From contig NW_026575814.1 in the NCBI RefSeq assembly GCF_028641065.1, forward strand, positions 124,001-188,000: a DNA stretch of 64,000 bases, given 5' to 3'. The notes beneath the pieces were generated by a model. It was not told the DNA's origin, did not search any database, and saw only the letters and a program-made list of their open reading frames with translations. Every line of letters starts with the position of its first letter. The first letter of the stretch is position 1. Source of the stretch: Leucoraja erinacea (Eukaryota). The position numbers were made by a program, and so were the translations under genes. This document shows, piece after piece, positions 11,833 through 45,780 of the stretch.

Positions 11833-12081
11833 ATTCCCACAGCTTGATATATTTCGCCACCTCCTCCCTCAGTGTCCCTGACCTGCCAGACTTCGCCAGG
11901 GTTGGGATGTTGGATGATCTGCAGATAGATTACTACGACAACTCCCTCGAAGAAGTGGTACCCAGGCAGCAGTGGATTGCGAATGGCTTCACGGCTGAGT
12001 ACTGGGCACGGCAGAAGATGATCGCAGACATCATTCACACGATTGTGTCTAAACAATTGGGAACACATGCCCAATTGCTCG
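11833..12081 (+). CDS. MHC class I alpha1 domain exon (249 bp)
   Basis: Branch-point-like CTAAC (~11802), pyrimidine tract and CAG acceptor ending 11832; donor G|GTATGT at 12082. Translation [83 protein letters not shown] keeps class I hallmarks H3, Y7, D29, W51, Y59, W60. Confidence 0.95.
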
Positions 12082-15000
12082 GTATGTGTCTTTGTACCCC
12101 TCTCAGGCTCACAGTAAATTTCACCTTGCCAAAATATCCGCTATCAGATGGATCCGATGAAGCAGCAGAAATTCCGTCCCCTGCTTTGGAATATGGGAGG
12201 AAACTGGACGGAGGCACCCGGAGAAAACTCATGCTGCGTGGTCATAGTGAGCATGTACAAATTCCGTGCAGTGTGCCCATTGCCCTCATTGTCAGGATCG
12301 AACCCGGGTCTCAAGGCAGCAATTCTACCGCTGCCCCATCATGCCAACAACTTCGGTCTCAATGCGATCGCCCTGCTCTACATACACACTGATGCACACT
12401 ACACCATCTCACACTGTGATTCCCCTGCTCTATATACACACTGATGCACACTACACCATCTCACACTGTGATCGCCCTGCTCTATATACACACTGATGCA
12501 CACTACACCATCTCACACTGTGATTCTCCTGCTCTATATACAAACTGATGCACACTACACCATCTCACTGTGATTCCCCTGCACTATACAAACTGATCCA
12601 CAGTACGCCATCTCTCACTGCGATTCCCTTCTCCGCCCATGATGATGCACAGTACACTCTCTCTCACTATCGCCTGCACTATACACATACTGATGCACAG
12701 TACATCATCGCTCACTGTAACCCCTGCTCTATGCACACTGATGCACAGTAAACCATCTCACTGTGATCCCCTGCTTTGCCCATACTGATGCACAGTACAC
12801 CATCTCTCACTATCCCCTACACTATATAAACTGATGCACAGTACACCATCTCTCACTATCCCCTACACTGCATTGTACACACAATGGATTAACACCGGGT
12901 GGCAGTGTACGATGGCAGCCTCGCCAACAGTCTGTCATGTCCTTTTCTTCTTTTGTTGTTTTTGGTCCATAATTAAATGCATGTTTTAGTGTATTTTCAA
13001 TTTTGTATTATGTTGGGGGGGGCCTTTAAAAAATCTCTTTCCTCGACGGAGATGCAACTTTTTCTGCATCGTAAATCCGTCCACACTGCAGCCTAACATC
13101 GTGCAGCTGACGGTCTCTTGGTTTGGGATCGACTTCGGGAGCTCAAACCACAGGAGATTCGACCGCCCCGATGCGGGAGCTTCATCTCCGGCTGCGGGAG
13201 CTTCCATCACCCCGACTGTGGATGGTTCAACTGCCCCGCAACCGCGAGGAAAAAGCAGGGAAGAAGATAATACGCTATTGCCTTCCATCCCATCACAGGG
13301 GTGGATGTATATGTGAATTTTTATGTTGTTTTATGATTTTTTTTTGTAAGACTGTATGGAAAATCAAATTCTTTGCATGTTTTTACATACTTGGCGAATA
13401 AATTAATTACAACTAGAATTACAATGATGCAATGCACACCATCTCACTGTAATCCCCTGCTCTATACACACCCTGACACACAGTACACCATATAACCATA
13501 TAATATAACCCCATATAACAATTACAGCACGGACACACAGTACACCATCACTGTAACCCTTCTACACACCCTGTCCGTGCCATATAACACATAACAATCT
13601 ACCCGGAAACCCATATCGACCCTTCTAGTCCTCAGAACACATAACCCTCCATATACCTGCGCTCAGACCATAACCCTCCATTCCCTATCCATATAACTAT
13701 CCAATTTATTTTTAAATGATAAAAACGAACCTGCCTCCACCACCTTCACTGGAAGCTCATTCCACACAGCTACCACTCTCTGAGTAAAGAAGTTCCCCCT
13801 CATGTTACCCCTAAACTTCAGTCCCTTAATTCTCATGTCATGTCCCCTTGTTTGAATCTTCCCTACTCTCAGTGGGAAAAGCTTTTCCATGTCAACTCTG
13901 TCTATGCCTCTCATCATTTAAAAAAACCTCTATCAAGTCCCCCCTTAACCTTCTGCGCTCCAAAGAATAAAGCCCTAACTTGTTCAACCTTTCTCTGTAA
14001 CTTAGTTGCTGAAACCCAGGCAACATTCTAGTAAATCTCCTCTGTACTCTCTCTATTTTGTTGACATCCTTCCTATAATTAGGCGACCAAAATTGTACAC
14101 CATACTCCAGAATTGGCCTCACCAATGCCTTGTACAATTTTAACATTACATCCCAACTTCTATACTCAATGCTCTGATTACCATCTCACTGTAATCCCCT
14201 GCTTATACACACTCTGACACACAGTACACCCTCACAGTAATCCCCTGTGCTATACACACCCTGACACACAGTACACCCTCACAGTAATCCCCTGCTCTAT
14301 ACACACCCTGACACACAGTACACCCTCACAGTAATCCCCTGCTCTATACACACCCTGACACACAGTACACCATCTCACTGTAATCCCCTGCCCAGTGTAA
14401 TCTCTCCTCTGCTCTATTGGCTATATTTAAGAGGGAGTTAGATGTGGCCCTTGTGGCCTGGAGAGAAGGCAGGACACACAGTACATGGCGGTGCAGGCTC
14501 ACAGTAATCCCACCCTGCTATTATACACACCCTGACACACAGTACACCATCTCACTGTAATCCCCTGCTCTATACACACCCTGACACACAGTACACAGTA
14601 ATCCCCTGCTCTATACACACCCTGACACACAGTACACCATCTCACTGTAATCCCCTGCTTATACACAGGGGACAGGCTAGATGCAGGAAGATTGTTCCCG
14701 ATGTTGGGGAAGTCCAGGACAAGGGGTCACAGCTTAAGGATAAAGGGGAAATCCTTTAAAACCGAGATGAGAAGAACTTTTTTTCACGCAGAGAGTGGTG
14801 AATCTCTGGAACTCTCTGCCACAGAGGGTAGTTGAGGCCAGTTCATTGGCTATATTTAAGAGGGAGTTAGATGTGGCCCTTGTGGCTAAGGGGATCAGGG
14901 GGTATGGAGAGAAGGCAGGTACGGGATACTGAGTTGGATGATCAGCCATGATCATATTGAATGGCGGTGCAGGCTCGAAGGGCCGAATGGCCTACTCCTG

Positions 15001-17574
15001 CACCTAATTTCTATGTTTCTATGTTTCTATGTTACACACCCTGAGCCACAGTACACCATCTCACTGTAATCCCCTACTCTATACACACCCTGACACACAG
15101 TACACCATCTCACTGTAATCCCCTACTCTATACACACCCTGACACAGTACACCATCCACCATCTCACTGTAATCCCCTGCTTATACACACCCTGACACAC
15201 AGTACACCCTCACAGTAATCCCCTACTCTGCCTACAATCATGCACGGTGTACCCTCTCCTATTTGATCCCCTGCTCTGAACACAATGATGTGAGTGCACA
15301 CACAGCCCCTCTCCATGATCATTCCCCTGTGTACCCACTCACCCTGGCTGTACACATTTGCTCACCGTGATCACAGATTGTTTGAGACACTTTGTGCTGT
15401 ACCACCACCTACGATGCTGCATTCACTCCACCCTCAGCCCCTGCTCTAACATCATCCCCTCACTACAGTCTGCTGCTCCCTGCATCTCGTGGTGACACAG
15501 TGCAGGTCCCATTTAGAAACATAGAAAATAGGTGCAGGAGTAGGCCATTCGGCCCTTCGAGCCTGCACCTCCATTCAATATGATCATGGCTGATCATCCA
15601 ACTCAGTATCCCGCACCTGCCTTCTCTCCATACCCCCTGATCCCTTTAGCCACAAGGGCCACATCTAACTCCCTCCTAAATATAGCCAATGAACTGTGGC
15701 CTCAACTACCTTCTGTGGCAGAGAATTCCACAGATTCACCACTCTCTGTGTGAAAAATGTTTTTCTCATCTCGGTCCTAAAAGATTTCCCCCTTATCCTT
15801 AAACTGTGTGACCCCTTGTTCTGGACTTCCGCAACATCGGGAACAATCTTCCTGCGTCTAGCCTGTCCAACCCCTTAAGAACCCCTTCCGTGTTTGGTAT
15901 GTGTAAAATGATTATGTTGCACAGATCTGGAGTTTAAAGCCATCTCTAATTGTAACACACAGTATAGGGGTACAGCAGGTTGTTAGTTGTTAGTTCATCA
16001 CTACCACTTCCAAGACTACTTAATGTAGGAAGTGGGTGTTAATATAAAGCATACAGTAAGGTGGGGTTAGTGTTGCTACTCTACTATGCTTGGTTCACAT
16101 GCATTAACCAATCTACAGTAGGGAATAGCTTCTCATTCATGACAAATGGTTCTTTACAGGTATCACCTACTTCCAGACGATTTGGGGCTGCACACAGTCT
16201 GAAAATATGAACCATCTGTTTGTAAAGTTTAGCATCCAAGACCTCGGTGCGATTGAGTGTGATCTGGTCACAGTGAACTGTTCCGCCACTGGTATCTTTA
16301 TAATCTTGAACGATCCAAGCACCTTACAGCCTTTCGTTAATAATGTTGCAGTTCAAACAGTGAACAACAGCTGCATTCCAGACTTGCGGGAAGCTCTTCA
16401 GCTTGGTGAGGCGGCACTCGAGAGGAGAGGTAGGTAGGACGGACTTCTCAGTACTTAAGCCCCTGTGTGTGACAGAGTGGGAGCTATGATCCAGGAAGGT
16501 GTGGGTGCTCCCTTTCCGGGACAGTCTGGGGCAGCAATAGAGCGCCCATTTGAGACAGTGAGGGAGCCCAGGGAGGTGAGGGAGCTTCCATTCTGGGACT
16601 GTGAGGTGTCTCTTGACCCAGACAACAAGGGAGCTCACATCGGCTATATTTAATTCCCATTGGCTATATTTAAGAGGGAGTTAGACGTGGCCCTTGTGGC
16701 TAAAGGGATCAGAGGGTATGGAGAGAAGGCAGGTACAGGATACTGAGTTGGATGATCAGCCATGATCATATTGAATGGCGGTGCAGGCTCGAAGGGCCGA
16801 ATGGCCTACTCCTGCACCTATTTTCTATGTTTCTATCCATGATGGTGAGGGAGCACTGATCTGGGACGATTTCCCAATCACGGATGGTGAGGGAGCTTCT
16901 GAGTCAAAATTATTAAAATGAGAAGATTTGGTTACATTCGAAACAGCTCAGATAATGTCTAGGGCCAAAAATAAAAATTTACCTGGAAACATTCAAAAAT
17001 TATTTAACGAGCGTGTGGGGGGTTACAATTTAAGAGGAATATTTAATTTTAAGAAACAAAGAGTCCGTACGACTAGAAAAACCTTTTGTATTTCGGTTTG
17101 TGGAGTAGGAGTGTGGAACAAATTGAACGAGGAATTAAAGCAATGTACAAACATGAATCATTTTAAAATGATATATAAAAAAATAATTTTCATGGGGATG
17201 GCTGACAAGTGGGGGTTAATGTTTATCTATTGCTTTACAATTGTTTACTTATGTTTGGTTGCTTCATATATGAAGTTTGTATGTGTATAATAGCTGTATG
17301 TCTGTAGGTATTATGGGAAAGTGCCTGGGGTAGTATTATTATTATTAATTAATTGATTTTTAAATATGGTAGAAATGTTGGGGAAAAGGGGTGAGATTTA
17401 ATAAGTTATTCTTCTTCTCACTCCTTTTCGAGCTTGTACAGACACAGAGTTGGACATTGGAAATTTGCTTTTTGTTCTTTTCATTGCTTGTAAATATTGA
17501 TTGTAATGTCCAATTGTTTGATAATTTCGATTTTGTTACTATTAATGTCTTTAATGTCTTTACTTGTTCGGAAT

Positions 17575-17605
<31 letters not shown>

Positions 17606-20600
17606 GGCAGGAGAATGGGGTGAGGAAGGAGAGATAGATCAGATTATACTGTACATAAATATAACAACGTTAAACTCAAGTACAATAGATAGTGCTAAGG
17701 GGAAGATACAGTTCATCAGTCCAATAGGCAGAATCCAATGTGGTAGAGGTGAATTGGACAGTACCTTAGCTCAGAAACTTGGTAGCAGAGGTGGTGGTGG
17801 TGCAAGCTTTCAAGCTTCTATACCCTTTGCCCGACTGGAGCAGGGAGAAGAAGGAATGACCGGGGATGGGACAAGTCATTAATTGTGTTGGCTGCTTTTC
17901 TGTGGCAGCGTGGAATGTAGGTGGAGTCAGTGATGGGGAGTCTGGATGCGTGATGGTCTGGGCTACATCTACAACTCTTCGCAATTTTTTTGTGGTCTTG
18001 GGTAGAGCTGTTCCCAAACCAAGCAGTGACAGTATGGAGCTTCTGCAGAGGACTGTAAGAATCATTGGAGTCATGCCAAATTTCCTGCGTCTCCTAAGGT
18101 AGTAGAGGCCTTGGTGTGCCTCCTTGGCTGCTGTATCAATGTGGTAATATTAACGCCAAGGAACTTGAAGATCTGAACCATTTCTACTTCAGCACCATTG
18201 ATACTGAGTGGGGCATGTACTCCACTATGTTTCCTGAACGAGCTAACTAGTTTGTGAGTGAAACAGTGAGACAGCAAGGCTGGTGTGCATAATCTCCATC
18301 TGTAAGTTACTAGGGAAATTGACGAGGGTCAAGCAGTGGTTGTTGTCTATATGGACTTTAGTAAGGCCTTTGACAAGGTTCCTCATGGAAGGTTGGTTAA
18401 GAAGGTTCAACTGTTGGGTATAAATGCAGGAATAGCAAGATGGATTCAACAGTGGCTGAATGGGAGAAGCCAGAGGGTAATGGTGGATGGCTGTTTATCG
18501 GGTTGGAGGCAGGTGACTAGTGGGGTGCCTCAGGGATCTGTGTTGGGTCCTTTGTTGTTTGTCATGTACATCAATGATCTTGATGAAGGTGTGGTAAATT
18601 GGATTAGTAAGTATGCAGATGATACCAAGATAGGGGGTGTTGTGGATAATGAAGAGGATTTCCAAAGTCTACAGAGTGATTTAGGCCATTTGGAAAAATG
18701 GGCTGAAAGATGGCAGATGGAGTTTAATGCTGATAAATGTGAGGTGCTACACCTTGGCAGGTCAAATCAAAATAGGACGTACATGGTAAATGGTAGGGAA
18801 TTGAAGAATACAGTTGAACAGAGGGATCTGGGTATAACCGTGCATAGTTCCTTGAAGGTGGAATCTCATATAGATAGGGTGGTAAAGAAAGCTTTTGGTA
18901 TGCTAGCCTTTATAAATCAGAGCATTGAGTATAGAAGCTGGGATGTAATGTTAAAATTGTACAAGGCATTGGTGAGACCAAATCTGGAGTATGGTGTACA
19001 ATTTTGGTCGCCCAATTATAGGAAGGATGTCAACAAAATAGAGAGAGTACAGAGGAGATTTACTAGAATGTTGCCTGGGTTTCAACAACTAAGTTACAGA
19101 GATAGGTTGAATAAGTTATCTTTATTCTCTGGAGCGCAGAAGGTTAAGGGGGGACCTGATAGAGGTCTTTAAAATGATGAGAGGGATAGACAGAGTTGAT
19201 GTGGACAAGCTTTTCCCTTTGAGAATAGGGAAGATTCAAACAAGAGGACATGACTTCAGAATTAAGGGACAGAAGTTTAGGGGTAATATGAGGGGGAACT
19301 TCTTTACGCAGAGAGTGGTGGCGGTGTGGAATGAGCTCCCAGTGGAAGTGGTGGAGGCAGGTTCATTGGTATCATTTAAAAATAAATTGGATAGGCATAT
19401 GGATGAGAAGGGAATGGAGGGTTATGGTATGAGTGTAGGCAGGTGGGACTAAGGGGGAAAAAAAAAAAAATTTGTTCGGCATGGACTTGTAAGGCCGAGA
19501 TGGCCTGTTTCCATGCTGTAATTGTTATATGGTTATATGGTAAGGTAATGTCCTCTGTGTTAAATTAGTGACGTTACTCTCCATTCTTCCCCAGTTGTTC
19601 CAGGGGTGACAGTGTTGAAAAGGGACAAAGGTGAGGGGCTCCGATGTGTCATCACTCCCTTTTACCCCCGCTCCATCAACGCCACTTGGCTGAGGAATGG
19701 ACAGGCCGTCTCCAATGGCATAAACAAGATCCTTCTACCAAACCACGATGACACGTACAGGATGGAACTGCTCATCGAGCTACACGGCCAAGATCCAAAG
19801 ATGTACAGCTGTCAGGTCCAGCACAGCAGCCTGCCAGAGACGCTGACAATGACACTGAGGGGAGGTAAGTCACTGTATGTTGTCTACAATCTGTTTCACT
19901 CCTGCTTGTAGAAAGGAGATGAGGAGTTTCTTTCGTTGGAGGTTCATTGACACAGAAGGCTGTGGAGGCCGTTAATGGAGATTTTTAAGGAATTATCGTT
20001 TCCTCTGAAGAAGGATGTGCTGGCGTTGGTGAGGGGCCAGAGGAGGATTACGAGAATGAGTCTAGGAATGATTGGGTTCACATATGATAGAAACATAGAA
20101 AATAGGCGCCACTCTCTGTGAAAAATGTTTTTCTCATCTCGGTCCTTGAGGATTTCCCCTTTATCCTTAAACTGTGACCCCTTGTCCTGGACTTCCCCAA
20201 CATCGGGAACAATCTTCCTGCATCTAGCCTGTCCAACCCCTTAAGAATTTTGTAAGTTTCTATAAGATTCCCCCTCAATCTTCTAAATTCTAGCGAGTAC
20301 AAGCCGAGTCTATCCAGTCTTTCTTCATATGGAAAGTCCTGACATCCCAGGAATCAGTCTGGTGAATCTTCTCTGCACTCCCTCTATGGCAAGAATGTCT
20401 TTCCCCAGATTAGGAGACCAAAACTGTACACAATACTCCAGGTGTGGTGTCACCAAGACCCTGTACAACTGCAGTAGAACCTCCCTGCTCCTATACTCAA
20501 ATCCTTTTGCTGATTGTTTTAAGGCACTGGGCCTATACTCGCTGGAGTTTAGATGGATGAGGGGGGACCTCGTTGAAACTTACTGAATTATGAAAGGTCT

Positions 20601-32600: not shown

Positions 32601-35177
32601 CCAGTTCATTGGCTATATTTAAGAGGGAGTTAGATATGGCCCTTGTGGCTAAGGGGATCAGGGGGTATGGAGAGAAGGCAGGTACGGGATACTGAGTTGG
32701 ATGATCAGCCATGATCATATTGAATGGCGGTGCAGGCTCGAAGGGCAGAATGGCCTCTACTCCTGCACCTAATTTCTATGTTTCTATGTTTCTAAACCAA
32801 CCCTCAGCTTCCTACTTTCCTAAGAGAGAGGAACGGTGGTGCAGTGGTAGAGTTGCTGCCTTACAGTGCCCGAGACCCAGGTTCGATTCCCACTGTGGGA
32901 GTTGGCTGTATGGAGTTTGTACGTTCTCCCCGTGACTGCATGGGTTTTCTCCAAGATCTTCGGTTTCCTCCCACACTCCTAAGACGTAAAAGTTTGTACG
33001 TTAATTGGCTGGTGTAAGTGTAAAATTGTAAATTGGCTCTCGTGCATGTGTAGGATAGCGTTAATGTGCGGAGATGGCTGTATCTCTAAACTAAAAATAA
33101 CCTAAAGAACCACAGCCTATTCAAATATTCCTGACATGGGCAACTGGGTCATCTTGGTCAGCAAGACCAAATTGGGCCAAAGGGCCTTTTTCTGCGCTGG
33201 ATGACTCTATTGCTAATTTACTCAGTCTCTGTAAATCTCACCTGCATCATTGGCAGGGTCCTGGAGTGTATTATAGAGCAGAGGAATCTTGTACAGGGTT
33301 CCATGACAGTGGCATCAAAGGTATTTAGGGTGGTATAGAAGGCTATTGGTACATTGGTCTTCATCAGACATGGTATTGAGGATAGAAGTTGACACGTTAC
33401 ATTTGTACAAGACGTTGGTGAGGCCACAGTTGGAGTATTGTGTTCAGTTTTAGTCATCCTGCCATAACAAGGATATAACCATATAAACCATATAACAATT
33501 ACAGCACAGAAACAGGCCATCTCGACCCTTCTAGTCCGTGCCGAACACATAATCTCCCCTAGTCCCATATACTTGCGCTCAGACCATAACCCTCCATTCC
33601 CTTCCCATCCATATAACTATCCAATTTATTTTTAAATGATAAAAACGAACCTGCCTCCACCACCTTCACTGGAAGCTCATTCCACGCAGCTACCACTCTC
33701 TGAGAAAAGAAGTTCCCCCTCATGTTACCCCTAAACTTCAGTCCCTTAATTCTCATGTCATGTCCCCTTGTTTGAATCTTCCCTACTCTCAGTGGGAAAA
33801 GCTTTTCCATGTCAACTCTGTCTATCCCTCTCATCATTTTAAAAACATCTATCAAGTCCCCCCTTAACCTTCTGCGCTCCAAAGAATAAAGCCCTAACTT
33901 GTTCAACCTTTCTCTGTAACTTAGTTGCTGAAACCCAGGCAACATGTCATTAAGATGGAAAGAGTGCAGAGAAGATAAACAAGGGTGTTGCTAGGACTCA
34001 ACAGACTGAGCATAGGGATGTCTTAATTAGGGTCTTGACCCGAAGCATCACTTATTCCTTTTCTCCAGAGATGCTGCCTGACCCGCGATGTTAGTCCAGC
34101 TTTTTACCTGTATATTTTGAGCATCGGGAGAGGTTAGATAGGCCAGAACTTCTTAGAGCACAGGAGGCTGAGGGGTGATCTTTTCAAGGTGACTAAATCA
34201 TGAGGGGAATAGATAGGGTGAATGCCCAGTCTTTTATCCAGGGTAGGGGAATCAAGAACCAGAGGGTATATGTTTAAGATGAGAGGGACAAGATGTAATA
34301 GGAAGCTGAGGGACTTTGAGGGTGGTGGGTATATGGAACGAAATGCCAGAGGAGGTAGTTGAGGCAGGTACTATAACAGCATTTAAGATACTTGGACTGA
34401 TACATGGACAAATAGGATTAGACATGACTTCAGAATTAAGGGACAGAAGTTTAGGGGTAACATGAGGGGGAACTTCTTTACTCAGAGAGTGGTAGCGGTG
34501 AGGAATGAGCTTCCAGTGGAAGTGGTGGAGGCAGGTTCGTTGGTATCATTTAAAAATAAATTGGATAGGCATATGGATGAGAAGGGAATGGAGGGTTATG
34601 GTATGAGTGCAGGCAGGTGGGACTAAGGGAAGAAAGTTGTTCGGCACGGACTTGTAGGGCCGAGATGGCCTGTTTCCGTGCTGTAATTGTTATATGGTTA
34701 TAAGATGGGGCATCATGGTTGGCAAGAATGAATTTTCACTGTACCTCAGTACACGTGACAATAAACCACACTAACTATACCAAAGAGTTGGGAAAGTTAG
34801 CTGTATGATCCCAAGACATATAAAGAGGGTGGCAAATCTGAGGAATGTTTTGCCACACAAGGCTGTGTAGGCCGTCAGTGGATATATTTAAGGCAGATAA
34901 ATAGATTCTTGATTAGTACAGGTTTCAGAGGTTATGGGGAGAAGGCAGGAGAATTGGGTTAGGAGGGAGAGATAGAGCAACTATGGCGGAGTAGACTTGA
35001 TGGGCCGAATGGCCTAATTCTGCTCTTATCGCTTATGATCTTATGATCTATGTTCTTCGCCTAATATCTACTGTATTTGCTTGCTGGGCAGGTGTTGGTG
35101 GGCCACGTGATGCATTTGGAGCTAGTTACATGCTGGTGCTCGTGGCTACGCTTGTGATGATCATTGGAACATGGTAG
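11833..35177 (+). CDS. Non-classical MHC class I-like heavy chain gene, spliced: join(11833..12081,16160..16429,19595..19864,35092..35177); leader exon not found
   Basis: Four AG/GT-bounded exons in the canonical order, all joined in phase 1. They translate without frameshift to alpha1 (DSHSLIYF...PRQQWI...EYW), alpha2 (FQTIWGC...[20 protein letters not shown]), a C1-set Ig alpha3 ([21 protein letters not shown]...LPNHDDTY...[10 protein letters not shown]) and a hydrophobic TM-like segment. Confidence 0.9.
12895..13420 (+). mobile_element. GC-rich non-coding retroposon-like element (copy 1)
   Basis: Same layout as copies at 26195, 29205 and 59712; ends at AATAAA plus a short repeat. Confidence 0.6.
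13490..14180 (-). mobile_element. CR1 LINE 3' fragment, family B1 (3' end scrambled)
   Basis: ORFs 13663-13917 and 13892-14146. Confidence 0.88.
14668..15032 (+). mobile_element. CR1 LINE 3' fragment, family A
   Basis: Family A 3' coding end, UTR and (CTATGTTT)n tail. Confidence 0.9.
15514..15880 (-). mobile_element. CR1 LINE 3' fragment, family A
   Basis: Family A tail and UTR. Confidence 0.88.
16160..16429 (+). CDS. MHC class I alpha2 domain exon (270 bp)
   Basis: TTCTTTACAG acceptor ending 16159; donor G|GTAGGT at 16430. Translation [90 protein letters not shown] has Q96, G100, C101 and C164 equivalents. Confidence 0.92.
16657..16835 (+). mobile_element. CR1 family A 3' UTR fragment
   Basis: GATCAGCCATGATCATATTGAATGGCGGTGCAGG...CTATGTTTCTA. 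Confidence 0.88.
16905..17602 (+). mobile_element. Crack/L2-group LINE 3' end
   Basis: ORF 16928-17290 (YNLRG..F....[18 protein letters not shown]), AT-rich UTR, (AAAT)n tail at 17572-17600. Confidence 0.75.
17770..18300 (-). mobile_element. Rex1/Babar-like LINE fragment, degenerate
   Basis: [18 protein letters not shown] and [13 protein letters not shown] motifs. Confidence 0.7.
18300..19541 (+). mobile_element. CR1 LINE RT fragment, family B2 (1.2 kb, one frameshift)
   Basis: ORF 18336-19172 with [21 protein letters not shown]; continues in ORF 19174-19452. Confidence 0.95.
19595..19864 (+). CDS. MHC class I alpha3 (C1-set Ig) domain exon (270 bp)
   Basis: Pyrimidine tract plus CAG acceptor ending 19594; donor G|GTAAGT at 19865. 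Contains L-x-C, FYP, W-L-R-N-G, LPNxDxTY and YSCxVxHSSL motifs. Confidence 0.96.
20087..20510 (-). mobile_element. CR1 family A fragment inside an older CR1
   Basis: ORF 20078-20302; ORF 20590-20799 is the older host. Confidence 0.85.
20980..22190 (+). mobile_element. Rex1/Babar LINE 3' fragment, split by CR1-B2
   Basis: IFFAAVCW...LKLRSIL [CR1] [24 protein letters not shown]...SFFPVA. Confidence 0.75.
21112..21870 (-). mobile_element. CR1 LINE 3' fragment, family B2
   Basis: ORF 21196-21894. Confidence 0.93.
22192..22713 (-). mobile_element. CR1 LINE 3' fragment, family B1
   Basis: ORF 22288-22674 plus tail. Confidence 0.92.
23180..23675 (-). mobile_element. CR1 LINE 3' fragment, family B2
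   Basis: ORF 23259-23645. Confidence 0.92.
23706..23965 (-). mobile_element. HE1/V-SINE-like SINE
   Basis: Reverse complement of the tRNA head (GGGTTCGATCCC B box) and core. Confidence 0.78.
24280..25045 (+). mobile_element. CR1 LINE 3' fragment, family B1 (many micro-insertions)
   Basis: ORFs 24165-24422 and 24708-24959. Confidence 0.88.
25700..25844. mobile_element. Small hAT-like MITE
   Basis: TIRs CAGTAGCGGACTG / CAGTCCGCCACTG; GCTCCACC near both flanks (imperfect 8-bp TSD); internal GGGCCCACTT x4. Confidence 0.65.
26195..27002 (-). mobile_element. GC-rich non-coding retroposon-like element (copy 2)
   Basis: ACAGAT TSD at 26189-26194 and 27003-27008; AATAAA plus (TATTG)n tail; two hairpins near the 3' end. 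Confidence 0.75.
27342..28005 (+). mobile_element. CR1 family B fragment, B2/B1 chimera
   Basis: ORF 27405-27920. Confidence 0.9.
28352..28808 (-). mobile_element. CR1 LINE 3' fragment, family A
   Basis: ORFs 28445-28693 and 28614-29066 (part). Confidence 0.9.
29205..30072 (+). mobile_element. GC-rich non-coding retroposon-like element (copy 3)
   Basis: GCAGCGGCCTCTGCAG head shared with copy 2; AATAAA plus (TTGTATC)n tail; inserted in an old CR1. Confidence 0.75.
30589..31352 (-). mobile_element. CR1 LINE 3' fragment, family A
   Basis: ORF 30687-31337. Confidence 0.93.
31967..32793 (+). mobile_element. CR1 LINE 3' fragment, family A
   Basis: ORF 31972-32523 plus tail. Confidence 0.93.
32830..33095 (+). 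mobile_element. HE1/V-SINE-like SINE
   Basis: A box GGTGGTGCAGTGG, B box GGTTCGATTCC, core and CTAAA tail. Confidence 0.8.
33474..33945 (-). mobile_element. CR1 LINE 3' fragment, family B1
   Basis: ORF 33559-33945. Confidence 0.92.
34420..34702 (+). mobile_element. CR1 LINE 3' fragment, family B2
   Basis: Coding end, UTR and tail. Confidence 0.88.
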
Positions 35178-35218
35178 AGACGAGGAGCAATGAGGAGAGA
35201 GGTCAGGTGTGATAACAG
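35092..35218 (+). CDS. Probable connecting-peptide/transmembrane exon of the MHC I-like gene; in-frame TAG at 35175-35177
   Basis: CAG acceptor ending 35091, phase 1 matching the alpha3 donor. Reads [41 protein letters not shown], then a strong donor AG|GTGAGT at 35219. Unique (non-repeat) sequence. Confidence 0.75.
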
Positions 35219-35313
35219 GTGAGTGAGCGCATAGACTCCTTCACTAAGACTCGATGATGTGACAAACTCTCTTCTCATTTATGATCCAATCTATTCTCAT
35301 TTCTCTTTCCCAG

Positions 35314-35390
35314 ATGAACATCCGGTCCTAATCCGAATACTGGATGAAGCTTCTACCTGTTACAATGATGAGTGGCTGTATACCTCATCA
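35314..35390 (+). other. Probable terminal exon start of the MHC I-like gene (after a 95-bp intron); 3' end undefined
   Basis: Strong acceptor TTCTCATTTCTCTTTCCCAG ending 35313; splicing in phase 2 gives AGA TGA. Confidence 0.5.
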
Positions 35391-35449
35391 AGAGGGGTCT
35401 CCACCCGAAATGTCGCCTATTCATTTTCTCCGGAGATGTTGTCTGACTT

Positions 35450-36060
35450 ATAACCATATAACCATATAACAATTACAGCACGGAAACAGGCCATCTCGAC
35501 CCTTCTAGTCCGTGCCGAACACATAATCTCCCCTAGTCCCATATACCTGCGCTCAGACCATAACCCTCCATTCCCTTCCCATCCATATAACTATCCAATT
35601 TATTTTTAAATGATAAAAACGAACCTGCCTCCACCACCTTCACTGGAAGCTCATTCCACACAGCTACCACTCTCTGAGTAAAGAAGTTCCCCCTCATGTT
35701 ACCCCTAAACTTCAGTCCCTTAATTCTCATGTCATGTCCCCTTGTTTGAATCTTCCCTACTCTCAGTGGGAAAAGCTTTTCCACGTCAACTCTGTCTATC
35801 CCTCTCATCATTTTAAAAACCTCTATCAAGTCCCCCCTTAACCTTCTGCGCTCCAAAGAATAAAGCCCTAACTTGTTCAACCTTTCTCTGTACCTTAGTT
35901 GCTGAAACCCAGGCAACATTCTAGTAAATCTCCTCTGTACTCTCTCTATTTTGTTGACATCCTTCCTATAATTAGGCGACCAAAATTGTACACCATACTC
36001 CAGAATTGGCCTCACCAATGCCTTGTACAATTTTAACATTACATCCCAACTTCTATACTC
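35450..36060 (-). mobile_element. CR1 LINE 3' fragment, family B1
   Basis: ORF 35533-36039; TGACTT on both flanks. Confidence 0.93.
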
Positions 36061-40669: not shown

Positions 40670-42098
40670 AAAACCACACAAAACATCACACTCACAGTTC
40701 AGTAGACATTGCTCTGCCCTTTGCTTTCCATGTGCTTTAATGGTTGTCTGGTTCATGGTGTCCTGCCAAATGCTATCATGTCTGTAATGTTAGTGCCTGT
40801 GCTTAAAGACAAGGCTGGTAAGCTCAACAGTATTGACAATTATCGACCTATTGCATTAGCCAGTATCTTGTTTAAAGTACTGGAGAGAATACTGCTAACA
40901 AAGCTAGAAATGTATGTCCTTACTACTGACAATCAGTTTGGCTTCAAAAGAAAACATGGAACTGACCAGTGTATCTATGCTCTTAAAGAGATTGCGTTCA
41001 GGTACACAAGCCTGAATTCATCTGTATTCCTATGTTTTATTGATGCGTCCAAGGCATTTGATAGAATTAATCATGAACAATTGTTTGTAAAATTGCTGGA
41101 TAGAGGTGCCCCTAAATTTTTAGTGAGAATTTTAGTGTTTTGGTATGCCCATCAAACGTTTCAGGTTAAATGGGACAATGTTGTATCTGCTCCATTCTGT
41201 GTTAGTGACGGAGTGCGGCAAGGAGGAATTTTGTCTCCCATTTTATTTAATGTTTATATGGACGAATTATCAAATCAGTTAAATAGGTTAAAAACTGGCT
41301 GTCTTGTGGGCAACATTATTGTTAATCATCTTATGTATGCAGACGACCTGGTCCTGCTCTGTCCATATAGTGCTGGGCTGCAGCAGATGTTGAAGGTGTG
41401 CTCTCAGTATGGCCTTGATTATGACATAAAGTATAACGCTAAGAAAAGCCGCATAATGATAGTTAGAAGCGCTGAGGACAGCGAATCAACTTTTACGACC
41501 TTTTATTTGTCAGACAGTCCTCTAACTGTGTGTGAGGAAATTAAATACCTAGGTCATGTCATATCCGATGACTGGACGGATGACAAAGACCTCTACCGAC
41601 AGCGCTGTAAATTTTATTTTCAAGCTAACATACTTATAAGGAGGTTTTCTACGTGCTCTGACTCTGTGAAGTGTTCCTTGTTCAGAACCTATATCACACC
41701 GTTAAATACTGCTCAATTGTGGTCTAACTATAAGAAAGAGTATGCAGAGGCTCAAGGTAGCATACAATGATGCAATGAGGTTGCTGCTTCATGTCCCCAG
41801 GTGGCATAGTGCCAGTCAATTGTTTGTGTCAACTAGAGTGCCAACCTGTGAGGCACTCTTAAGACAGCTGATGTTTAGTTTTATGTGTCGCCTGGACAAG
41901 TCAGAGAACCACATAATTGAAGCCCTAGTCAGCCCTCTGAAAAGCTGCTATAGATTCACTTCTAGGCTAAGATGGCATTGGTGCAATAGCTTGTATATCT
42001 TATAGGCTAATATGCAATTTTTAATGTATTTTTTGTATCTCCTTATACTGTATGATGTGTTATATGGACCTGTGTCTGAAATAAAGCTTTATTATTAT
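40670..42098 (+). mobile_element. Non-CR1 LINE (RTE-X-like) reverse transcriptase 3' half, one frameshift
   Basis: ORF 40709-41770 (NYRPIAL, QFGFK, DASKAFD, GVRQGGILSP, HLMYADD) continues in ORF 41742-42005; AATAAA plus (TTA)n tail. Clade assignment is tentative. Confidence 0.85.
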
Positions 42099-42999: not shown

Positions 43000-43400
43000 C
43001 TTTACATCAGTTATACCAAAGAAGGCTAAGTACCCGTTTTGCCGAACACTTGTGTCTGCTAAGGCCTGCTGGATCACCCGGTTCCCAGCCATTTTAACTC
43101 CCCTTCCCATTTCCAGACCGAACTTTGTGTCTTGGGACTCCTCCATTGCCAGAGTGAGGCCACACGCAAATCGGAGGAACAGCACCTCGTATTCCGCTTG
43201 GGTAGTTAACAAACAAAGGATATGAACACTGAACTCTCCAATTTCAAGTAATGCTTCCCCAAACCCTTCTCCTTCCTGTGCTCCCCCCCATCCCACCATT
43301 TGCACAGCCATTTCTCCCACCACCTCCCACCCACATAATCCCGTTCCTTTCCACTCCTTTAAGCGTTTATCTCCCATCTCCCCGTCCGCTGTGCAGAACG
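43000..43400 (+). mobile_element. Degenerate Penelope-like fragment
   Basis: Similar to 4482-4808 (GAGGAACAGCACCTCGTATTCCGCTTGGG). Confidence 0.7.
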
Positions 43401-43414
43401 AACGCGAGAGCAGG

Positions 43415-45780
43415 CGAACCAACGAGAGAGCAGGCTATTTTAGACTGGGTATTGAGCAATGAGGAAGGGTTAGTTAGCAGTCTTGTTGTACGTGCCCCCT
43501 TGGGCAAGAGTGACCATAATATGGTTGAGTTCTTCATTAGGATGGAGAGTGGCATTGCTAATTCAGAAACAAGAGACCTGAACTTAAAGAAAGGTGACTT
43601 TGAGGGTATGAGACGTGAATTGGCCAAGATTGACTGGCAATTAATTCTAAAAGGGTTGACGGTGGATATGCAATGGAAGACATTTAAAGACTGCATGGAT
43701 GAACTACAAAAAATTGTTCATCCCAGTTTGGCAAAATAATAAATCAGGGAAGGTAGTGCATCCGTGGATAACAAGGGACATCAGGGATAGTATCAAAGCG
43801 AAGGATGATGCGTACAAATTAGCCAGAAAAAGTAGCATACCGGAGGACTGGGAGAAATTCAGTGACCAGCAGAGGAGGACAAAGGGCTTAATTAGGAAAG
43901 GAAAAATAGATTATGAAAGAAAACTGGCAGGGAACATAAAAACCGACTGCAAAAGTTTTTATAGATATGTGAAAAGAAAGAGATTAGTTAAAACAAATGT
44001 AGGTCCCTTGCAGTCAGAAACAGGTGAGTTGATCATGGGGAACAAGGATATGGCGGACCAATTGAATAACTACTTTGGTTCCGTCTTCACTAAGGAAGAC
44101 ATAAATAATCTGCCGGAAATAGCAGGGGACCGCAGGTCAAAGGAGTTGGAGGAATTGAGTGAAATCCAGGTTAGTCGGGAAGTGGTGTTGGGTAAATTGA
44201 ATGGATTAAAGGCCGATAAATCCTCAGGGCCAGATAGGCTGCATCCCAGAGTACTTAAGGAAGTAGCTCCAGAAATAGTGGATGCATTAGTAATAATCTT
44301 TCAAAACTCTTTAGATTCTGGAGTAGTTCCTGAGGATTGGCGGGTAGCAAACGTAACCCCACTTTTAAAGAAGGGAGGGAGAGAGAAAACGGGGAATTAC
44401 AGACCAGTTAGTCTAACATCGGTAGTGGGGAAACTGCTAGAGTCAGTTATTAAAGATGGGATAGCAGCACATTTGGAAAGTGGTGAAATCATTGGACAAA
44501 GTCAGCATGGATTTACGAAAGGTAAATCATGTCTGACGAATCTTATAGAATTTTTCGAGGATGTAACTAGTATCGTGGATAGGGGAGAACCAGTGGATGT
44601 GGTGTATCTGGACTTCCAGAAGGCTTTCAACAACGTCCCACATAAGAGATTAGTATACAAACTTAAAGCACACGGCATTGGGGGTTCAGTATTGATGTGG
44701 ATAGAGAACTGACTGGCAAACAGGAAGCAAAAGAGTAGGAGTAAACGGGTCCTTTTCACAATGGCAGGCAGTGACTAGTGGGGTACCGCAAGGCTCAGTG
44801 CTGGGACCCCAGCTATTTACAATATATATTAATGATCTGGATGAGGGAATTGAAGGCAATATCTCCAAGTTTGCGGATGACACTAAGCTGGGGGGCAGTG
44901 TTAGCTGTGAGGAGGATGCTAGGAGACTGCAAGGTGACTTGGATAGGCTGGGTGAGTGGGCAAATGTTTGGCAGATGCAGTATAATGTGGATAAATGTGA
45001 GGTTATCCATTTTGGTGGCAAAAACAGGAAAGCAGACTATTGTCTAAATGGTGGCCGATTAGGAAAAGCGGAGATGCAGCGTGACCTGGGTGCCATGGTA
45101 CACCAGTCATTGAAGGTAGGCATGCAGGTGCAGCAGGCAGTGAAGAAAGCGAATGGTATGTTAGCTTTCATAGCAAAAGGATTTGAGTATAGGAGCAGGG
45201 AGGTTCTACTGCAGTTGTACAGGGTCTTGGTGAGACCACACCTGGAGTATTGCATACAGTTTTCGTCTCCAAATATGAGGAAGGACATTATTGCCATAGA
45301 GGGAGTGCAGAGAAGGTTCACCAGACTGATTCCTGGGATGTCAGGACTGTCTTATGAAGAAAGACTGGATAGATTTGGTTTATACTCTCTAGAATTTAGG
45401 AGATTGAGAGGGGATCTTATAGAAACGTACAAAATTCTTAAGGGGTTGGACAGGCTAGATGCAGGAAGATTGTTCCCGATGTTGGGGAAGTCCAGGACAA
45501 GGGGTCACAGCTTAAGGATAAGGGGGAAATCCTTTAAAACTGAGATGAGAAGAACTTTTTATAACACAGAGAGTGGTGAATCTCTGGAACTCTCTGCCAC
45601 AAGGGCAGTTCATTGGCTATATTTAAGAGGGAGTTAGATGTGGCTAAGGGGATCAGAGTGTATGGAGAGTAGGCAGGTATGGGATACTGAGTTGGATGAT
45701 CAGCCATGATCATATTGAATGGTGGTGCAGGCTCGAAGGGCCGAATGGCCTACTCCTGCACCTAATTTCTATGTTTCTAT
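43415..45780 (+). mobile_element. Longest CR1 family A copy (~2.4 kb ORF2 fragment: end of endonuclease, RT and C-terminus; several disablements)
   Basis: ORFs 43251-43739 (LGKSDHN), 43699-44712 (NYRPVSL, QHGF, DFQKAF) and 44771-45637 ([14 protein letters not shown]). Confidence 0.95.

What the first reader, a model, noticed from the sequence alone, without database searches (positions are those of the whole stretch)
35092..35320. Stop codon directly after the TM segment: tail-less, possibly GPI-anchored class I
Seen: ...[48 protein letters not shown]. The basic residues after the TAG look like a former cytoplasmic tail cut off by one substitution. The resulting C-terminus (small residues, polar spacer, terminal hydrophobic run) fits a GPI signal. 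The stop lies 41 nt before the next junction, inside the ~50-nt zone that usually escapes NMD. Established precedents: mouse Qa-2, MICA*008 and ULBP/RAE-1. The alternatives are a null allele or a sequencing error.
Basis: partly seen in the sequence, partly recalled or inferred. Interest (0 to 1): 0.7.

Follow-up and report, generated by a model that had tools for sequence, protein, structure and literature searches.

The report
Skate UFA: ancient tail-less, GPI-type end
The stop codon is the normal end of a skate's copy of UFA, a known shark-and-ray immune gene likened to lipid-presenting CD1; its relatives across sharks and rays stop at the same spot with no inner tail, so the protein is likely tethered to the cell surface by a glycolipid (GPI) anchor.

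Summary
In detail: TAG at 35175-35177 follows the hydrophobic segment and lies 41 nt before the donor. The gene is skate UFA, the named CD1-like MHC class Ib lineage (nurse shark structure 8GM8; one branch with 100/100 support). The stop is neither an error, a null allele nor a recent substitution. Two probable-RNA contigs splice alpha3 to this exon and keep the TAG, and runs of four other organisms keep it too. Of 27 UFA models, 23 (13 species of sharks, rays and skates) end at the same place; the other four have aberrant ends, none a membrane helix plus tail. Of 55 other class I proteins with a hydrophobic C-terminal segment, 54 have a tail. The UFA end fits a GPI signal (small-residue site, polar spacer, weak terminal hydrophobic run), so a GPI anchor is likely (~0.7). 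No GPI predictor or bench test was run, and the skate end is the most helix-like in the lineage. The 'fossil tail cut by one substitution' idea is not supported. Nine library searches found no report of a GPI anchor on UFA, but the primary UFA paper was not held. This scan noted the same thing on six other windows.

The parts
11833..12081 (+). UFA alpha1 exon. The leader exon lies just outside the window, starting at G000:C633:122784, about 1.2 kb before position 1.
   Evidence: leader
16160..16429 (+). UFA alpha2 exon
19595..19864 (+). UFA alpha3 (Ig C1) exon; its last base begins the codon of Gly289, the best candidate GPI attachment (omega) residue
   Evidence: spliced to 35092 in contigs X6 and X8 (loose end)
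35092..35218 (+). Last coding exon (127 nt, phase 1 in, phase 2 out): rest of the omega region, polar spacer, terminal hydrophobic run, stop and 41 nt of 3' UTR
35092..35174 (+). Predicted GPI signal, residues 289-316: Gly289-Val-Gly, spacer 292-298, hydrophobic run to Trp316
   Evidence: feature list from PMC2571997
35175..35177 (+). TAG, the normal lineage-wide stop codon
35178..35218 (+).
35219..35313 (+). 95-nt GT..AG intron in the 3' UTR
   Evidence: joint seen in 2 of 4 runs
35314..35460 (+). Following 3' UTR exon, which runs into a genome-wide repeat from about 35390; its true end was not determined

Best explanation
This exon is the normal last coding exon of skate UFA, and the tail-less end that it shares with shark and ray UFA likely works as a GPI-attachment signal. 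Shown: the gene is intact, spliced through this exon with the TAG kept, orthologous to nurse shark UFA (8GM8), and the stop position is conserved across elasmobranchs. Inferred: after signal-peptide entry into the ER, GPI transamidase would cut at about Gly289, discard the 27-residue hydrophobic tip and attach a GPI anchor. UFA would then sit on the outer leaflet with no cytoplasmic sorting motif. It would pick up lipids in the ER, at the surface or in GPI-type recycling routes rather than through CD1b/d-style tail-directed endosomal traffic, and phospholipases could shed it. Lipid binding comes from a review's personal-communication statement, not from a test here.
For: Exons translate exactly to P0003 residues 27-316. 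All 15 listed members of its 42-member cluster are 316 aa and end at the same Trp; 14 of them come only from Logan contigs. Probable-RNA contigs X6 and X8 show alpha3 joined to the exon with the TAG and the 95-nt intron removed. Four of 4 runs of organisms B-E cover the TAG and both splice sites with no difference listed. Of 27 UFA models, 22 pass my rule (no more than 3 residues after the hydrophobic run, plus an omega candidate 17-31 residues from the end with a polar spacer), and a 23rd has the same end but just misses the hydrophobicity cut-off. Of 55 other class I proteins with a hydrophobic segment, 54 have a tail; the one exception has a strong helix and no omega candidate. The best 19-residue Hessa sum has a median of +2.2 in UFA against -3.6 in the tailed controls, so UFA tips are poor membrane helices. 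Changes in the hydrophobic run among skate runs all keep apolar residues. The layout matches PMC2571997. GPI-anchored, beta2m-associated class I-like proteins exist in mammals (MILL; PMC6193965).
Against: No GPI predictor and no experiment were run. My rule was written after seeing the UFA ends, so it is partly circular. The skate tip is the most helix-like in the lineage: 21 uncharged residues, Hessa sum -0.45 against -0.6 for the weakest genuine controls, and a helix at 296-315 in a low-confidence part of the model. One minor contig in run X13 changes the omega+2 Gly291 to Val. Four of 27 UFA models have other ends without a hydrophobic run (P0023, P0037, P0050, P0051), which may be model errors or soluble isoforms. 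The raw-read runs did not cover the stop, and the RNA status of X6 and X8 is the tool's guess. Most shark and ray models are database predictions whose transcript support I did not see.
Confidence: 0.7

Rival explanations
1. The hydrophobic end is not cleaved and acts as a short, tail-less membrane helix, at least in skates.
For: The skate run has 21 uncharged residues and a Hessa sum of -0.45, at the edge of the range of true class I membrane segments; the model shows a helix at 296-315. One control (P0118) is nearly tail-less with a strong helix.
Against: Most orthologues have only 12-15 uncharged residues after a Pro, with positive Hessa sums (+1.2 to +5.8) and no basic stop-transfer cluster. 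Every model passing the tail-less test keeps a small-residue site about 10-13 residues upstream.
Confidence: 0.14
2. The weak hydrophobic tip slips through the translocon or is clipped, and UFA is a secreted lipid carrier in the manner of ZAG, or is held in the ER.
For: Shark tips are poor helices (Hessa up to +5.8). Some models lack the hydrophobic exon altogether (P0023, P0050).
Against: A hydrophobic run of nearly fixed length, with spacer and small-residue site, has been kept across 13 species, which plain secretion would not need.
Confidence: 0.1
3. Stop-codon read-through gives a minor membrane isoform with the 14-residue basic tail that the first reader saw.
For: The 41 nt are open, with no indel or stop in 6 runs. 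Six of 14 codons are Arg; only 0.4% of 42-nt stretches of the window are open and this basic.
Against: Shuffles of the stretch's own bases reach 6 basic residues 11% of the time (6% also open). Five of 7 changes are non-synonymous, including two Arg losses. The context after TAG is not a known strong read-through motif (recalled). The N/S count has little power, as the coding part gave a similar ratio (11 of 14).
Confidence: 0.04
4. The TAG is a recent nonsense mutation, a null allele or a sequencing error.
For: None beyond the look of the single sequence.
Against: The same end is present in all 15 listed cluster members, in Amblyraja, in runs of four other organisms and across sharks and rays; all exons are open.
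Confidence: 0.01

Closest known systems
Elasmobranch MHC class Ib lineage UFA (nurse shark ectodomain, PDB 8GM8, released 2024-11-27; Gcirratum_UFA in supplementary file 10 of PMC10751288)
   Same: Best PDB sequence hit (E 1e-71, against 1e-35 for UGA 9CH4), top Foldseek hit, one branch with 100/100 support, and on the same contig as UDA, as PMC10751288 describes.
   Different: The crystal construct stops at alpha3. The two papers read that mention UFA say nothing of its anchor ('GPI' occurs 0 times in both).
Mammalian GPI-anchored class I-like proteins: MILL1/2 (PMC6193965, passage seen); Qa-2, MICA*008, ULBP/RAE-1 (recalled)
   Same: Class I fold ending in a GPI-type signal instead of a membrane helix plus tail.
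   Different: Those are mammalian and bind peptides, NKG2D or other ligands; MICA*008 is a recent allele (recalled). Here the trait is fixed across a whole ancient, reportedly lipid-binding lineage, and is predicted only.
CD1 (mammal, bird, reptile) and elasmobranch UGA (PDB 9CH4)
   Same: Non-classical class I said to bind lipids (PMC12562908, section 2.1, personal communication cited there).
   Different: CD1 is a membrane protein sent to endosomes. The UGA candidate membrane exon in this genome has a full helix and a basic stop-transfer cluster; UFA has neither. Orthology of UFA to CD1 is left open in PMC10751288.

Membership tests
UFA (elasmobranch MHC class Ib) | Groups with nurse shark UFA to the exclusion of other class I lineages | tested here: met
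   Tree of 31 rows: 15 UFA rows, including this protein and the 8GM8 sequence, form one side of a 100/100 branch; the 8GM8 title names UFA and its alpha1 and alpha3 match Gcirratum_UFA by eye
UFA (elasmobranch MHC class Ib) | Single or low copy, in the class Ib cluster with UDA | tested here: met
   The next-best alpha3 in G000 is 42% identical and the next-best alpha1 44%; UDA exons lie on the same contig C633 at 48.9-61.6 kb. Counts are lower bounds.
UFA (elasmobranch MHC class Ib) | Lipid ligand in the groove | not testable with these tools
   Only the statement in PMC12562908 section 2.1
GPI-anchored protein | N-terminal signal peptide | tested here: met
   Hydrophobic 25-codon leader exon found at C633:122784; judged by eye, no predictor
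GPI-anchored protein | Small residues at omega to omega+2, about 20-30 residues from the C-terminus | tested here: met
   Gly289-Val-Gly, 27-residue propeptide; a candidate is present in all 22 UFA models passing the tail-less test (rule)
GPI-anchored protein | Polar spacer omega+3 to omega+9, then hydrophobic run to the C-terminus with no cytoplasmic tail | tested here: met
   own rule with thresholds set after seeing the sequences
GPI-anchored protein | Positive call by a trained predictor (NetGPI, PredGPI) | not testable with these tools
   No such predictor is installed; the ESM Atlas search of residues 280-316 gave only sub-0.9 Ig C1 leads
GPI-anchored protein | PI-PLC release or dependence on PIG genes | not testable with these tools
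   Bench test
Type I membrane class I heavy chain | Membrane helix followed by basic stop-transfer residues and a cytoplasmic tail | tested here: not met
   0 residues follow the hydrophobic run; 54 of 55 controls have a tail
Pseudogene or null allele | Lesion private to one haplotype, other disabling changes, no spliced transcript | tested here: not met
CD1 family | Orthology with tetrapod CD1 | not tested
   No CD1 rows in the tree; PMC10751288 calls orthology hard to assess

The most novel reading that the evidence does not exclude
UFA is a GPI-anchored, CD1-like lipid-presenting MHC class I molecule, with the anchor fixed since before sharks and rays split. That would make it the first GPI-anchored class I outside mammals and the first lipid-presenting one with no cytoplasmic tail at all. 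Elasmobranchs would then split lipid surveillance between a tailed form (UGA) and a raft-bound, sheddable form (UFA).
Probability: 0.5. Interest if true: 0.65.

Novelty: new variant of a known kind. Interest (0 to 1): 0.46.

Why it matters
CD1 isoforms divide lipid sampling by their cytoplasmic tails. If the oldest CD1-like molecule has no tail and a GPI anchor, lipid loading can work without tail-directed endosomal sorting, and the earliest jawed vertebrates already had two trafficking solutions (UFA and UGA). It would also push GPI-anchored class I far back beyond the mammalian cases. The claim can be tested with one transfection and a PI-PLC treatment. The gene, its lineage and its ectodomain structure are already known; only the anchor may be unreported.

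Tried and rejected
Sequencing error, null allele and recent single substitution: rejected. A weak alternative donor that would place the TAG in the intron, or a different membrane exon: not seen; both contigs run through the TAG to the 35219 donor and begin in alpha3 (two low-depth contigs, so rare isoforms are not excluded). N/S count after the stop (5 of 7 non-synonymous, 79% expected if neutral): uninformative, because the coding part gave 11 of 14 with 74% expected. Raw-read runs X22 and X24 put one or two reads on the exon and none on the stop. The ESM Atlas feature search on residues 280-316 gave only weak Ig C1 hits. The AlphaFold model was middling (mean pLDDT 62.5; residues 290-309 under 50) and served only to reach the PDB titles; the VIA second look gave tied class I hits. 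The attempt to print the ends of UFA-like units inside the long fused models P0052-P0060 returned nothing, so those were not assessed. The treekit one-clade test was not available under the name tried. A search for the PDB codes found only unrelated papers. The UDA and UEA papers are not held. No complex prediction was run, as no binding claim is made.
Full report
Observation. The window shows the exon as described: acceptor at 35090-35091, exon 35092-35218, TAG at 35175-35177, donor GTGAGT at 35219, a 95-nt intron and the next exon from 35314. The stop lies 41 nt before the junction. An exon scan found alpha1 at 11833-12081, alpha2 at 16160-16429 and alpha3 at 19595-19864. These three exons plus the finding's exon translate exactly to residues 27-316 of P0003, NCBI XP_055521808.1 of Leucoraja erinacea. 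The leader exon lies about 1.2 kb before the window, at G000:C633:122784. The gene is intact.

Is the stop real? The cluster of P0003 has 42 members; 40 were read and 15 listed. All 15 are 316 aa and end at the same Trp, and 14 come only from Logan contigs. Of 4 runs laid to test splicing, X6 and X8 (two samples, one study; RNA is the tool's guess) each give one low-depth contig. Each begins in alpha3 sequence, crosses the exon with no other letter at the TAG and skips the 95-nt GT..AG intron. The raw-read runs X22 and X24 did not reach the stop. In 4 of 4 runs from organisms B-E the TAG and both splice sites are covered with no difference listed, although the codon before the stop and seven places after it vary across the runs. 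Error and private allele are excluded.

What gene is it? The best PDB sequence match is 8GM8 (E 1e-71), then 9CH4 (1e-35). Their titles name shark non-classical class I UFA and UGA. The 8GM8 sequence matches Gcirratum_UFA in supplementary file 10 of PMC10751288 by eye. In a tree of 31 proteins, the 15 UFA rows chosen (one per genus) form one side of a 100/100 branch that includes this protein and the 8GM8 sequence (midpoint root; no CD1 rows). No close paralogue was found in G000, and UDA exons lie upstream on the same contig, fitting the UDA/UEA/UFA cluster of PMC10751288. PMC12562908 says, citing a personal communication, that UFA and UGA bind lipids like CD1d.

How old is the tail-less end? 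Three homologue searches gave UFA models from skates, sawfish, mantas, stingrays, an electric ray and several sharks. I scored 27 models, leaving out the nurse shark ectodomain, two alpha2-less isoforms with the same end and the other members of the skate cluster. Twenty-two end within 3 residues of a hydrophobic run and carry an omega candidate; one more (P0024) has the same end but misses my hydrophobicity cut-off (1.83 against 2.0). Four end differently with no hydrophobic run: a Narcine isoform, an alternative Chiloscyllium model, a partial Scyliorhinus model and a truncated Mobula model. None has a helix plus tail. The 23 come from 13 species: Leucoraja, Amblyraja, Pristis, two Mobula, Hemitrygon, Hypanus, Heptranchias, a Pristiophorus-labelled record, Heterodontus, Chiloscyllium, Cetorhinus and Carcharodon. 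The stop falls in the same alignment column. It therefore predates the shark-ray split, roughly 250-300 million years ago (recalled).

Control. Of 153 other proteins were set aside for size (outside 280-430 aa; some of the long ones may contain UFA units and were not assessed), 9 for lack of the Ig motif, 17 for lack of a hydrophobic segment and 3 as too short. Of the remaining 55, 54 have a tail. The one exception has a strong helix and no omega candidate. The best 19-residue Hessa sum has a median of -3.6 in the tailed controls (53 of 54 at or below -0.6) and +2.2 in UFA (range -0.45 to +5.8). In this genome the candidate membrane exons of UGA and UDA encode full helices followed by basic residues (candidates, not checked against RNA).

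Mechanism. PMC2571997 describes a GPI signal as small residues at omega-1 to omega+2 about 20-30 residues from the end, a spacer from omega+3 to omega+9, and a hydrophobic tail from omega+10. The skate end fits with omega at Gly289 and a 27-residue propeptide; ray orthologues fit with 24 residues and the hydrophobic run starting exactly at omega+10. I infer cleavage and GPI transfer in the ER, display on the outer leaflet without a sorting motif, and possible shedding by phospholipases (confidence 0.7). Against this: no predictor or experiment was run, and my rule was written with the sequences in view. The skate tip is the most helix-like in the lineage (21 uncharged residues), and one minor contig of run X13 has Val at omega+2. 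A tail-less helix (0.14) and secretion or ER retention (0.10) remain open.

The 'fossil tail'. The 41 nt after the stop are 79% purine. Six of 14 codons are Arg, which shuffles of the same bases reach 11% of the time (6% also open), although only 0.4% of window stretches are open and this basic. Five of 7 observed changes are non-synonymous, but that test has little power, as the coding part gave 11 of 14. The exon is 127 nt and exits in phase 2, whereas the UGA and UDA candidates are 108 and 132 nt, phase 1 to 1. Descent from a tailed ancestor is plausible, since an intron still follows the exon, but 'one substitution' does not describe it. NMD escape rests on the recalled 50-55 nt rule; spliced transcripts exist, but further downstream introns were not excluded.

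Known versus new. The lineage and its ectodomain structure are known. GPI-anchored class I-like proteins are known in mammals: MILL (PMC6193965, one passage seen), and Qa-2, MICA*008 and ULBP/RAE-1 (recalled). Nine library searches listed no paper reporting a GPI anchor on UFA or on a non-mammalian class I; hits other than the four papers below were seen as listings only. 'GPI' does not occur in the main text of PMC10751288 or PMC12562908. The UDA and UEA papers are not held, and no primary UFA/UGA paper was found although 9CH4 was released in March 2026; such a paper or its supplements may already state this. Papers seen: PMC10751288 (passages, section 9, supplement searches and part 97), PMC12562908 (passages, section 5), PMC2571997 (passages), PMC6193965 (passages). 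After I had recorded my reading, the scan's notes showed six earlier agents reaching the same view on other genomes; these are not independent evidence.

Verdict. A real, ancient and lineage-wide feature of a known gene. A GPI anchor is likely but untested. Novelty: new variant of a known kind; interest 0.46.

Noticed in passing
window 16160-16429 (alpha2; P0003 Cys143 and Cys149): An extra, closely spaced cysteine pair in alpha2, kept in many but not all UFA orthologues including the nurse shark one.
   Followed up: no
P0019-P0021, P0024, P0047 (Mobula); P0022, P0026, P0028, P0029, P0034 (Hemitrygon): UFA, described as single or low copy, has at least five diverged copies each in a manta and a stingray, all with the tail-less end.
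   Followed up: partly
P0038, P0039: Stingray UFA isoform models lack the whole alpha2 exon but keep the same C-terminal signal.
   Followed up: no
P0023, P0050: Narcine and Scyliorhinus models run on past alpha3 without the hydrophobic exon; these could be soluble isoforms or model errors.
   Followed up: no
window 11833-16429; P0001, P0003-P0016: The 15 listed cluster members differ at several alpha1 and alpha2 positions (for example residues 76, 79, 103, 134), so skate UFA may be modestly polymorphic, or the set may mix related species.
   Followed up: no
window 35040-35400, run X13: Up to four different contigs cover the exon in one run, hinting at a duplicated UFA in that organism; one carries a change at the omega+2 position.
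   Followed up: partly
window 35314-35455: Read in phase 1, the 3' UTR exon is open for about 47 codons with several tyrosines; the observed splice does not use that frame. It could be a relic cytoplasmic exon or chance.
   Followed up: no
G000:C1104:3122-39679 and G000:C732:113244-140938 (L002, L004, L039, L040): Two near-identical UGA genes on different contigs, either haplotypes or a recent duplication.
   Followed up: no
window, about 56% of bases; 40706-41770 and about 43400-44400: The introns are packed with LINE-like fragments; there is a 354-aa reverse-transcriptase-like ORF at 40706-41770 and another retroelement-like open stretch near 43400-44400.
   Followed up: no
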